Shown: positions 21,001 to 24,000 of the stretch, one piece after another
How the letters are laid out: every line of letters begins with the position of its first letter
Position numbering within the stretch: the first letter of the stretch is position 1
From: an uncultured Nitrospiraceae bacterium
Lineage (GTDB): Bacteria; Nitrospirota; Nitrospiria; Nitrospirales; Nitrospiraceae
Length of the DNA stretch: 64,000 nt
Reading direction: 5' to 3'
Assembly: GCA_963730935.1 (NCBI GenBank)
Contig: CAVSTP010000004.1
Location: forward strand, 1,536,001 to 1,600,000
Program-made: the position numbers

Positions 21001-24000
21001 GCGCAAAGACGTGATCGTTACCGAACAGCGTTTCGTAGGGTGGACAGTCGAGCGTGATGACGTTGCTGAACACGCGCCGGTGTTCGGCCTGCAGCTCACT
21101 CAATTGCCAATTCACACACTCGGAGGCGATCAGTTTTTCGATCTGGTCGAACTGCTTGCGCATCAACGCCAGCCTTTGCTTGGCCCGGTCCCCTCCGGTC
21201 CCGTCGAGGGCGGTCTCCAAAGCATCGAGGGCTGCGCGCCCGTCTTCCACGAACTCGCCGCACTGCAAATAGTCGAGAAATTCGTCGTCTTCCGGGTAGA
21301 GCAGGCTCCAGGAAACGAGGAGATAGAGCTTGCTGCGGTTGAGTGCACGTTCGACTGCGGGGGAATCTTTGATCGGGGGATTCGGAATGACAGCGGCTGC
21401 GGATTGTGTAGAACCTTGTACCGACTGCTTACTCGTCATGAGAATATGCTCCTCACTTTGACCCCGTTGCCGTGAAACATTTCTTCGGCAACTTCGGTCA
21501 AACCAGTGGCGAAAGCCTGGGTATGATAGGTAAAGGTCAAAAACTTGTCAAGCACCGATTCTGACTCTTCCATCACCATTAATTCGGACTGCTTCTTCAG
21601 AGAAATCGGGGGTTATGGTGTAAGGGACCGCTTACGGTCTTGGCTCATTTCCACCAGTGACTTGCTAACGGGAGGCCGGCTCCATCGAACGAAAGGGCGT
21701 TATTTTGATGGCGATGTGATCGTTAACCGTGCGGCAGACGTGCTCGCACATGCCGCATCCTACACAACGTTCAACCGCCACTACAAGCCGCTGTGTACCA
21801 AAATCCATGTCCAGTGCATCCGTGGGACATTTCGACACACAAGCATGACACCCCTGCCCCGCCGTGCAGAGTCGATGGTTCACGACGGCCACCCCCATCC
21901 GGACGTCCTGCGTTCCTGCAACCGGCAGCAAGGCTTCGGTCGCACAGGCGGCAATGCAGGGCATGTCGTCGCAGAGGTAGCAAGGCACCTGGTCGGGGAA
22001 AATCACGGGTGTGCCGTCGGGGTGCAACACAATCGAGTCATGCGGGCAGGCTTTCACACAGTCGCTGCACTTGGTACAACGCTCGAAAAACAGCGCTTCG
22101 CTGACCGCGCCAGGCGGCCGCAGCCAATCCGTCCGCACGGGAGGCGCCGGCTTCTCGGGCGCCGCGTCCACATGAGCGGCATATTCCTTCGCCGCCTTCG
22201 CGACCGAGAGGACGGAGTCCTTGAAAAAGTCGCGTCGTCCGTATTTCGGATCTGTAGCCACGGTTTAGTATTGTTGTTCTTCAGTAGTTGGTCAAAAAGG
22301 GCACCAGCAAACCCGGCGCGAGCGAAAGGTCCGAGGAGGTACATACCACGCTTCGCTTGACCCGCTCGCTTCGATCAAATGCGAGCGGATAGGTACTTTG
22401 CCTCCAGCTAATTCGTACGTCGAGGCCTTGAGCGAAGCGAGAACGAAGCTCGCGACCTTTTTCACCATCTGCTTCTACATGACGCCGTCGGCGCGGAGCT
22501 TATACACCTCGACACAGCGGTCGCAGGCGCCGAACTCGACGTCCCAGCCCGGGTGATTTTCGCGGATGAAATCCAGCACATAGGATTCGATCTTGCTCCC
22601 CATGTCCTCGACCCAGGAATAGGTCGGGAAGCGGCACAACGGGCACGGGAAGCCGGGCATCAGCATGACCTTGTTTTCGGTCTCCGGCACTTCGCCGCCT
22701 TCGACGTCGACAGCGCGGTCCATGACCCGCAAGGTGTCCGTCGCCATTTCGATCAATTCTGCGTGCGTGAAGAAGCTCGTCAGCCACAAGCCTTCGAAGA
22801 CGGATTTGAGCTGCAGAGCGGGAATTTTCCGGTACCACGACCGGAATTCCTTGAAGCGGTCTTCTTTCCGGAGCATCGGTTCCTTGCCGGCGGCCGTCAA
22901 CCGGCTATCGACGCTCAAGCTCCAGAGGATGCGGTAGCGGTGGAGGATGAGGGTTTCTTCGCCGGGGTTCAGCCCGACCTTGGTATCGGGATCGTAGCCG
23001 AAGACCGGATCCAGCATGTCTGAAATGTGCATGAGCTCATGCCGGCAATACCGTGTCAGCGCCGGATCATAAAATCGCCGGGGGATGAGCTTGATCCCGA
23101 TGCCCTTCAGGCCCTTCTCTTCGAACTGCCTCGCCAGATCGTGCTCGACCGATCCCCATTTGCGCAGGATGTCCACGCCTTCCTGATCTTCCTTGAGCAC
23201 GCCTTTGACGAGCACGATGCCGACCCTATCTTTGACGAGCGGATACTCGTTGAATGCATCGCGGATAATGTCGCTGAACCCCCAGGTACCGAAGAGATAC
23301 TGGTAGAGCTTCTTGAACTCGCTTTCCCGATCGTCGAGCGTGAACTTTTCGTAGATCGGATCCGCCAGTTCGTGGAACTCCTTATAGTAGGTGGGGTCCC
23401 CTTCCCGTTCGGTTTTTTCCACGAACGAGTCGATCACTTCCTGCAGCAAAGCAGGCTGAAAACGCAGTTCCATATCAGCCTCGGTTTTCCGGTCTTGGGG
23501 CCGCTTTCCCCAGTCGTGGTGCGGTGTGGACGGCGCGCCGAGCGGCTTGACTTGGCGCCGTAGCTTCTCTTACGATCTCCAAATCGACCGCAAATTATAC
23601 TGGCTAGAAACGGCGATTTGCAATCAAGCCTGTCGTCGCCGGCCGGTTGACCAAGAAGGATTCGGCAAGGTACCACCCATGACACAACCAAGCGCCTCCT
23701 CGACCGTTCCCGCACAGCCTTCAGCTCCGGCCGCTGCTCCGACGGGTCCGATTGACTCGCTCGAATATTGGACCGCGGGCGCCCGTGAAGTCCGAACATT
23801 CCGCGGACATTCGCACGGCGTCTGGTCCGTTGCGTTTGCGCCGGACGGCTTGACGCTCGCCAGCGCCGGCGTCGACCGTCTCGTCCGGATCTGGGACATT
23901 GAGACCGGCCGGCTGCTTCGGTCGCTGCGCGGCCATACCCATGATATCCGCGCCGTCCTCTACACGCCGGACGGTCAGTCGTTGGCCACGGGCAGCGAAG

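What a model noticed while it worked through the whole genome (the two positions that open the first line are those of the whole stretch)
22475..23473. The NXR-linked 'zinc finger' protein is an HExxH zincin found in nearly every periplasmic-type NXR operon
g03848 (332 aa, no family match), in the nxrC-torD cluster, has an HExxHxxD zincin motif and a C-terminal four-cysteine site. Distant homologs, including archaeal ones, lie almost always inside operons for Nitrospira/anammox-type nitrite oxidoreductase, next to the TorD chaperone. It is a candidate metalloprotease for NXR maturation and a marker for this NXR type.
Evidence so far: 73-91% identical across Nitrospirales and beside torD; in the class found in 13 of 13 order genomes and 2 of 28 others, 0 of 34 more distant phylum genomes. 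Of 26 non-Nitrospira loci of 8 kb or more, 25 hold an nxrA-like gene, 24 nxrB, 23 torD; two Hydrothermarchaeota MAGs have nxrC-A-B-torD-this gene. HExxH in 40 of 45, CxxC..CxxC in 44 of 45 aligned members. Model pLDDT 93; many of the best structural rows are zincins (Wss1, tricorn F3, YbeY, aminopeptidases) at Z 4-5.
(Added by a program. Inside this text positions count along the whole contig: contig position 1,536,001 is position 1 of the stretch shown here. "Call 12" and the like, gene names such as g00115 and contig names such as C1 are that model's own, and its searches are not shown. The text may have been shortened before it was handed on; [...] marks where a part breaks off. The agent that wrote the report below was given it as the finding of a first reader that could run no searches.)

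Follow-up and report, generated by a model that had tools for sequence, protein, structure and literature searches.

The report
Protease-like helper of nitrite oxidoreductase
This gene makes an unstudied protein shaped like a zinc protease that travels with one type of the nitrate-making enzyme across bacteria and archaea and probably helps build it, though cutting proteins may not be its main job.

Summary
The 332-aa ORF, its HExxHxxD and its four cysteines are real. A zincin fold is well supported, although Z-scores are low. The link to Nitrospira/anammox-type NXR holds in both directions. Of 48 non-Nitrospira loci, 47 hold nxrA, nxrB or torD. Starting from nxrA, 54 of 69 genomes with this NXR type carry the gene, against 0 of 47 with only the 36–41% sister clade. 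'Nearly every periplasmic NXR operon' is too strong: 11 complete operons lack it, and Nitrospira keeps it away from nxrAB. The protease reading is weaker than claimed. HExxH is broken in 29 of 114 diverse members, repeatedly, while the other conserved residues stay. The likely third-ligand position varies (Ser here). NxrA and NxrB have no extension that tracks the gene. Best reading: a cytoplasmic, low-abundance NXR maturation factor that binds a precursor peptide in a zincin cleft, with cleavage optional (0.5); a dedicated protease is second (0.27). The gene was already noted as a 'putative zinc finger' of this cluster (Lücker 2013), and this scan noted the family before on another genome. 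The zincin assignment and breadth look new.

The parts
22475..23473 (-). The gene: 332-aa cytoplasmic protein with an N-terminal helical region, a zincin domain and a C4 module
   Evidence: no signal peptide or membrane helix by hydropathy (maximum 19-residue KD 0.95)
23285..23473 (-). N-terminal three-helix region (aa 1-63) with conserved Y41, R49, F53, F61; possible binding surface or lid (inferred)
22730..23284 (-). Zincin domain (aa 64-248): three strands, active-site helix 139-154, following helix 170-194
23018..23041 (-). HELMHISD (H145, E146, H149, D152)
22907..22921 (-). S185...D189: inferred third-ligand and second-shell positions; 185 is D, A, N, S, C or E in the family and Ser here
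   Evidence: (top covariation partners of H145)
22514..22645 (-). C4 module CPLC...CDRC (aa 277-320); also found on subtilases, DUF1003 proteins and alone
21665..22261 (-). NapG-like ferredoxin
   Evidence: beside the gene in 32 of 32 Nitrospira loci
20477..21439 (-). TorD/NxrD-like chaperone
   Evidence: PF02613, TIGR03482 below cut-off; within 400 nt of the gene in 41 of 48 non-Nitrospira loci
19440..20393 (-). NxrC (heme b subunit, EB_dh)
17444..19225 (-). B12-binding radical SAM protein, co-conserved in 27 of 32 Nitrospira and 9 of 48 other loci

Best explanation
A cytoplasmic, sub-stoichiometric accessory factor for building the Tat-exported Nitrospira/anammox-type NXR (or the nitrate reductases of that clade). 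It is a zincin fused to a structural C4 metal module. It most likely holds an extended peptide of a not-yet-exported precursor (apo-NxrA with its Tat leader, or the leaderless NxrB that must be exported with it) in the zincin cleft, while TorD/NxrD and ferredoxin partners load cofactors. Cutting is optional: some members may keep zinc and trim or clear failed precursors, but many have lost the metal ligands and are still maintained. Shown here: fold, motif states, gene linkage, no signal peptide. From papers: low, co-regulated expression. Inferred: the partner, the peptide binding and the timing.
For: Linkage: 47 of 48 non-Nitrospira loci hold nxrA, nxrB or torD; 54 of 69 NXR-type genomes against 0 of 47 sister-clade genomes. 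In Nitrospira it stays with napG and torD (32 of 32) when nxrAB lie elsewhere. Non-subunit, low level: kustd1701 (ortholog by synteny with L024) is transcribed and falls 5.5-fold with the cluster but, like neighbouring kustd1702, has no proteome value (PMC6423088); purified NXR holds kustd1700/1703/1704 (PMC8387239). NITMOv2_3627 (ortholog by position and 999-bp length) has 327 RPKM against 2,417 for torD and 18,780 for nxrC (PMC6606698 supplement). Catalysis dispensable: HExxH broken in 29 of 114 and 9 of 27; 20 parsimony changes on a 198-row tree, and the 37 broken copies keep D152, F158, W184, W310 and all four Cys at 100%. Only 61 of 113 have HExxH plus D/E/C at 185. No terminal extension of NxrA or NxrB tracks the gene. 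Precedent for a second, Cys-rich, export-linked accessory protein: FdhE (PMC10609526).
Against: Nitrospirales keep HExxH in 82 of 83 clusters and D189 in 82 of 83, and E146 is kept in 110 of 114, as an active enzyme would. If D189 rather than 185 is the third ligand, this protein has a full site; no coordinates were available to decide. Low abundance fits a catalyst as well as a transient chaperone. Eleven complete operons lack the gene, so it is not essential for every enzyme of the clade. No partner has been identified.
Confidence: 0.5

Rival explanations
1. A dedicated, active zinc protease of NXR biogenesis: it processes or destroys apo-NxrA, NxrB, the Tat leader or TorD, and the C4 module helps pick the substrate.
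For: Zincin fold; HExxH in 160 of 198 rows (the set includes motif-selected loci); near invariance in Nitrospirales; the same C4 module sits on subtilases; low expression.
Against: About 20 changes between intact and broken motif with the rest conserved; Ser, Ala, Asn or Gly at 185 in many intact copies; no cleavable extension of the hydrogenase type on NxrA or NxrB.
Confidence: 0.27
2. A metal-handling or non-proteolytic enzyme: the His/His/(Asp, Cys) site and C4 carry iron or zinc for Fe-S or cofactor loading together with the NapG-like ferredoxin and the radical SAM protein, or modify an NXR residue as alpha-ketoglutarate HExxH oxygenases do.
For: Asp/Cys/Glu exchange at 185 (Cys in 58 of 83 Nitrospirales clusters); napG and radical SAM neighbours; equal RPKM of the gene and napG; ChlB HExxH domain at Z 4.1; FdhE binds iron at CX2C pairs.
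Against: The same loss of His ligands applies; napG is near in only 15 and the radical SAM gene in 9 of 48 non-Nitrospira loci; the ChlB match is no better than other zincins.
Confidence: 0.12
3. A regulator: it binds or cuts a transcription factor or sensor that controls nxr expression, as IrrE or MtfA do (both recalled).
For: HExxHxxD is shared with the M90/MtfA type (recalled; PF06167 hit in 1 of 117 members at E 0.03); cytoplasmic; low expression.
Against: No regulator was seen as a constant neighbour in the loci examined (only named genes were tested); its constant neighbour is the chaperone.
Confidence: 0.08
4. A passenger gene with no role in NXR, carried along by transfer of the operon.
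For: Absent from 11 complete operons; zincin-only relatives without C4 exist away from NXR.
Against: Kept in several gene orders across more than ten phyla at 22-40% identity; only 3 of 55 carriers lack a detected NXR-type nxrA and two of those have torD beside the gene.
Confidence: 0.03

Closest known systems
'Putative zinc finger' protein of the shared Nitrospira/Nitrospina/Kuenenia NXR gene set (Lücker et al. 2013, PMC3578206); kustd1701; NITMOv2_3627
   Same: Very probably the same gene (synteny, size, C4 site). The link to NXR in three genera is in print.
   Different: Called a zinc finger or unknown protein; no zincin domain, no spread beyond three genera and no motif decay were found in the passages read or in searches.
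Minimal zincins: SPRTN/SprT (6mdx), Wss1 (5xbn), jannalysin, abylysin and selecase (4jix, 4jiu, 4qhf), YbeY
   Same: Strand-strand-strand plus HExxH helix core; Z 4.5-5.2, rmsd 3.5-3.9, 88-99 residues aligned; YbeY Z 4.7 with the full model.
   Different: 10-14% identity or less; no profile match above E 0.003; extra N-terminal helices and C4 module; no second His ligand after the motif (family comparison recalled).
Gluzincins with a ligand helix (thermolysin E166/D170 pattern, M48, M56; pattern recalled)
   Same: A helix after HExxH with polar residues four apart (185, 189) that covary with H145; BlaR1, Ste24 and aminopeptidases among the rows.
   Different: The ligand position is Asp in about half, Glu rarely, Ser here.
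FdhE and TorD/NarJ-type molybdoenzyme accessory proteins (PMC10609526)
   Same: Works like them by inference: cytoplasmic, not a subunit, tied to operons of Tat-exported molybdoenzymes; FdhE also has CX2C pairs.
   Different: No sequence or fold relation found; none of them has a zincin domain (recalled).
Pseudopeptidases of metallopeptidase families (PMC11266112, abstract only)
   Same: Loss of catalytic residues with a kept fold used for binding or scaffolding.
   Different: Here most copies still carry HExxH, so the family is mixed, not uniformly dead.

Membership tests
Zincin superfamily (fold) | HExxH on a helix | tested here: met
   H145-H149 on helix 139-154
Zincin superfamily (fold) | Small mixed sheet and backing helix before the active-site helix | tested here: met
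   all 21 of 50 rows that start at model residue 1-2 are zincin-type by title (my classification, partly recalled); Z 5.2 or less, top row not a zincin
Active zinc metallopeptidase | Third protein ligand to zinc | tested here: inconclusive
   Position 185 (Ser here) or D189; covariation points to both; no coordinates given
Active zinc metallopeptidase | Motif essentially invariant across the family | tested here: not met
   Broken in 29 of 114, 9 of 27, 20 changes on the tree; met within Nitrospirales, 82 of 83
Active zinc metallopeptidase | Zinc binding and peptide hydrolysis | not testable with these tools
   Needs purified protein
SprT-like, WLM, M76, M90, M91, DUF2201_N, DUF5781 (Pfam) | Profile match above the curated cut-off | tested here: not met
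   No hit for the query; scattered weak hits in members, best E 0.003; Atlas scores 0.76-0.81, leads only
Hydrogenase-type maturation endopeptidase (works-like test) | Substrate carries a terminal extension that tracks the protease | tested here: not met
   NxrA and NxrB termini alike in operons with intact, broken or no gene
FdhE/TorD-type dedicated maturation factor | Genetic linkage to the target enzyme's operon; not a subunit | tested here: met
   papers
FdhE/TorD-type dedicated maturation factor | Binds the precursor and is needed for active enzyme | not testable with these tools
   No experiment in the papers read
Marker of periplasmic NXR in general | Present with every periplasmic NXR type | tested here: not met
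   54 of 69 for the Nitrospira/anammox clade, 0 of 47 for the sister clade; no Nitrotoga genome was searched directly

The most novel reading that the evidence does not exclude
It is the first dedicated protease, or protease turning into a pseudoprotease, for maturing a molybdoenzyme: a zincin that proofreads NXR precursors before Tat export, active in Nitrospira and anammox bacteria and reduced to a binding scaffold many times elsewhere. It would be the missing factor for producing Nitrospira-type NXR in a laboratory host, and it would flag an NXR-type enzyme in archaea and many uncultured phyla.
Probability: 0.3. Interest if true: 0.75.

Novelty: new variant of a known kind. Interest (0 to 1): 0.55.

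Why it matters
NXR makes most of the nitrate in nature (PMC8387239), and little is known about how the Nitrospira/anammox enzyme is assembled beyond a presumed TorD. This gives a named, testable second accessory factor with residues to mutate (E146, H145, 185, D189, the four Cys) and natural intact, broken and absent variants to compare. It also separates the Nitrospira/anammox clade from its 36-41% sister clade in genome bins. It marks the enzyme clade, not nitrite oxidation as a way of life: many carriers are not known nitrifiers.

Tried and rejected
Complex prediction of the protein with TorD plus zinc: no answer, score 0.05 against a mark of 0.32; not evidence either way. Fusion search among 631-2000-aa proteins: none, weak evidence; three longer hits had no informative Pfam domain. 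Sequence searches of solved structures: nothing below E 0.2. Foldseek: nothing at E 0.001. Idea that the Cys in the TorD tail completes the zinc site: dropped, since that Cys is also there in most operons lacking the gene. Idea of a replacement gene behind torD in operons without it: none seen in 14 loci. Idea of a cleavable extension on NxrA or NxrB: not seen. DUF2201_N resemblance (recalled): the family's only match in the own genome lies elsewhere. RNA-library contigs from four studies cover parts of the gene, but no silent control stretch was laid, so this is not counted as expression. A metagenome scan with a zincin-only relative gave two 1-kb contigs without context. Paper searches that found nothing; the library lacks most subscription journals, and Lücker 2010 and de Almeida 2011 were not read. 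A word search of earlier scan notes found nothing.

Full report
1. The observation. The ORF at 22475..23473 (-) encodes 332 aa, is single copy, and has no Pfam or NCBIfam match at E 0.1. It carries HELMHISD at 145-152 and Cys277/280/317/320, and shows no signal or membrane segment. Downstream on the same strand lie a NapG-like ferredoxin, a TorD-like chaperone, NxrC and a B12 radical SAM protein. The two nxrAB copies of this genome are on other contigs.

2. The family. The word-index search found 737 proteins and the HMMER search 830 clusters at 50% identity; only the best 120 and 150 were listed, so the most distant members were not examined. All 25 order-level genomes sampled have the gene; 1 of 125 other genomes of the phylum has fragments. 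From the listed hits I aligned 113 proteins of 285-365 aa plus the query, leaving out three partial matches.

3. Fold. The full model has pLDDT 93.9, the domain 64-248 has 93.5: three strands, the HExxH helix, a loop, a long helix. Foldseek found nothing at E 0.001. In the wide structural search of the domain the top row is an unrelated helical piece (Z 5.7), followed by SPRTN (Z 5.2, rmsd 3.5, 99 aligned) and jannalysin (5.0, 3.8, 88). All 21 of 50 rows that begin at the sheet end of the model are zincin-type by their titles (classification mine). Weak Pfam hits of the 78 domain sequences are led by M91 (13), M76 (10), SprT-like (8), WLM (5) and phage metallopeptidase (5), best E 0.003. Each line is weak; together with the motif they make a zincin fold likely (about 0.9). 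It belongs to no named family.

4. Is the site catalytic? HExxH is intact in 85 of 114. H145 is kept in 91, H149 in 102, E146 in 110, against 114 for W184, 113 for D152 and 113 for the C4 set. Among 27 copies found through nxrA or by profile, 9 are broken. On a tree of 198 rows (160 intact, 37 broken, 1 gap; it includes loci selected on the motif, and some rows may be near duplicates) the state changes 20 times, and the broken copies keep D152, F158, W184, W310 and the four Cys at 100%. The top covariation partners of H145 are 185 and 189 (rows are related, so the Fisher values overstate). By analogy with the thermolysin E166/D170 pair (recalled), 185 is the third ligand. It is D 62, A 13, N 11, S 10, C 9, E 4 of 114; Ser here; Cys 58, Ser 21 of 83 close clusters. 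Against this: Nitrospirales keep HExxH in 82 of 83 clusters, and D189 could be the ligand. No coordinates were available to decide.

5. Linkage, gene to NXR. A scan of GTDB genomes with the pattern RHELMH[VI]xD confirmed 289 stretches and returned the best 80; this sample is biased to intact motifs, and 24 of its 48 non-Nitrospira loci are Planctomycetota. Of those 48, 42 hold nxrA (about 52-59% identical over full length), 40 nxrB, 45 torD, and 47 at least one; torD is within 400 nt in 41. The one exception starts at its contig end. Of 32 Nitrospira loci, 32 have napG and torD and none nxrA or nxrB.

6. Linkage, NXR to gene: the test the title needed. I searched five phylum samples with NxrA (38, 301, 301, 251, 251 genomes; phyla named from the seed loci) and then with the family profile, in all genomes for three phyla and in the NxrA-positive genomes for two. 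Seeds excluded, genomes with NxrA at 49% or more carry the gene in 3 of 3, 1 of 3, 4 of 4, 14 of 16 and 32 of 43: 54 of 69. Genomes with only the 36-41% type: 0 of 47. Matches to the C4 module alone or the zincin core alone were not counted. In the three two-way phyla, 52 of 55 carriers (seeds included) have the NxrA type; two of the other three have torD beside the gene. Searches scored at most nine candidates a genome and the genomes are incomplete, so I fetched the operons: 11 of the 15 negatives run through torD without the gene, 4 are cut by contig ends. The NxrA tree of 121 sequences splits the two types with support 1.0 and puts the 11 in a few long-branched groups, with carriers nested among them, so the gene was probably lost several times. 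Kin are not independent.

7. Periplasmic is too wide. Chicano 2021 gives about 40% identity for Nitrotoga and Hydrogenobaculum NxrA (PMC8387239, passages), which fits my sister clade by inference. The Nitrotoga enzyme is predicted periplasmic, and its operon is described as nxrABCD plus a 70-aa and a 341-aa NTPase-like protein (10.1101/317552, passages; supplements not seen). No Nitrotoga or identified Nitrospina genome was searched here.

8. Expression, from papers. In Kuenenia, kustd1701 lies between nxrA and the gene before nxrB, the order seen in L024 and L020. It is listed as unknown, falls 2.4- and 5.5-fold with the cluster, and has no proteome value (PMC6423088, table passages). In N. 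moscoviensis the 999-bp gene before napG has 327 RPKM, equal to napG, against 2,417 for torD and 18,780 for nxrC (PMC6606698, passages and supplement rows). Both orthologies rest on position and size.

9. How it likely works. Shown: cytoplasmic features, zincin plus C4 anatomy, tight and specific linkage to one clade of Tat-exported molybdoenzymes and to their chaperone. Inferred: it acts on precursors before export. NxrA has a twin-arginine leader and NxrB none, and neither has an extension that follows the gene's presence or motif state. Repeated loss of the zinc ligands with a kept scaffold points to binding as the conserved function, with cutting optional (0.5). A dedicated protease (0.27), a metal-handling enzyme (0.12), a regulator (0.08) and a passenger (0.03) follow. 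FdhE, a CX2C protein needed only for exported formate dehydrogenases, is the nearest functional analogue (PMC10609526, passages); pseudopeptidases act as binders (PMC11266112, abstract).

10. Novelty. Lücker 2013 lists 'one putative zinc finger' among genes shared by Nitrospina, Kuenenia and Nitrospira (PMC3578206, passages and part 1 of section 19). Searches found no paper calling it a zincin or peptidase; subscription papers are mostly missing. PMC6775978 (passages) does not use the term Nxr for the archaeal genes. So: a new zincin family tied to a known cluster, a new variant of a known kind. Interest 0.55: useful and testable for nitrogen-cycle biochemists, but the link was partly known and no activity is shown.

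Noticed in passing
L015:7337-7633, L071:7489-7815, L210:11714-12046 and others: A second conserved protein of about 95-125 aa without a Pfam match lies between nxrA and nxrB. Its profile hits 58 loci, including all 11 operons that lack the zincin gene, but 0 of 33 sister-clade loci, none of 20 anammox loci tested and not the own genome. A further candidate NXR accessory factor.
   Followed up: partly
L047:8567-9169 and 12 more Scalindua-type loci: A roughly 200-aa protein with an apparent signal peptide carries the same C4 module but no zincin domain, between nxrB and torD; no Pfam match.
   Followed up: partly
L157, L159-L167: The C4 module is mobile: N-terminal on S8 subtilases, on a DUF1003 protein, and as a 65-aa protein alone. 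It has no profile of its own among the hits.
   Followed up: partly
L099:1471-2205, L100, L154, L155: Zincin-only relatives of about 200 aa with intact HExxH, Asn at 185 and no C4, in four genomes without NXR-type nxrA; in L099 beside ribosomal-protein-like and GTPase-like ORFs (names recalled).
   Followed up: partly
L030, L033, L057, L121: Archaea carry a full Nitrospira/anammox-type operon with NxrA at 55-58% identity, nested among bacterial sequences. The passages read in PMC6775978 speak only of nap and nar genes.
   Followed up: partly
window 12922-13820 (-): The second nxrC-like gene reads in two frames against nxrC, and a radical SAM paralog on contig C4 near 794,500 reads in three pieces; possibly assembly indels.
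   Followed up: partly
window 22286-22469: A palindromic intergenic element between the gene and napG with 14 further matches in the genome at about 80-86% identity.
   Followed up: partly
window 20477-21439 (-): TorD of this clade has an acidic tail with a conserved Cys (C282, 90% or more of 85 rows).
   Followed up: partly
L271-L273; L114: Second nxrA copies in anammox-type genomes stand without nxrB-torD or this gene; a second full operon in G201 lacks the gene while the first has it.
   Followed up: no
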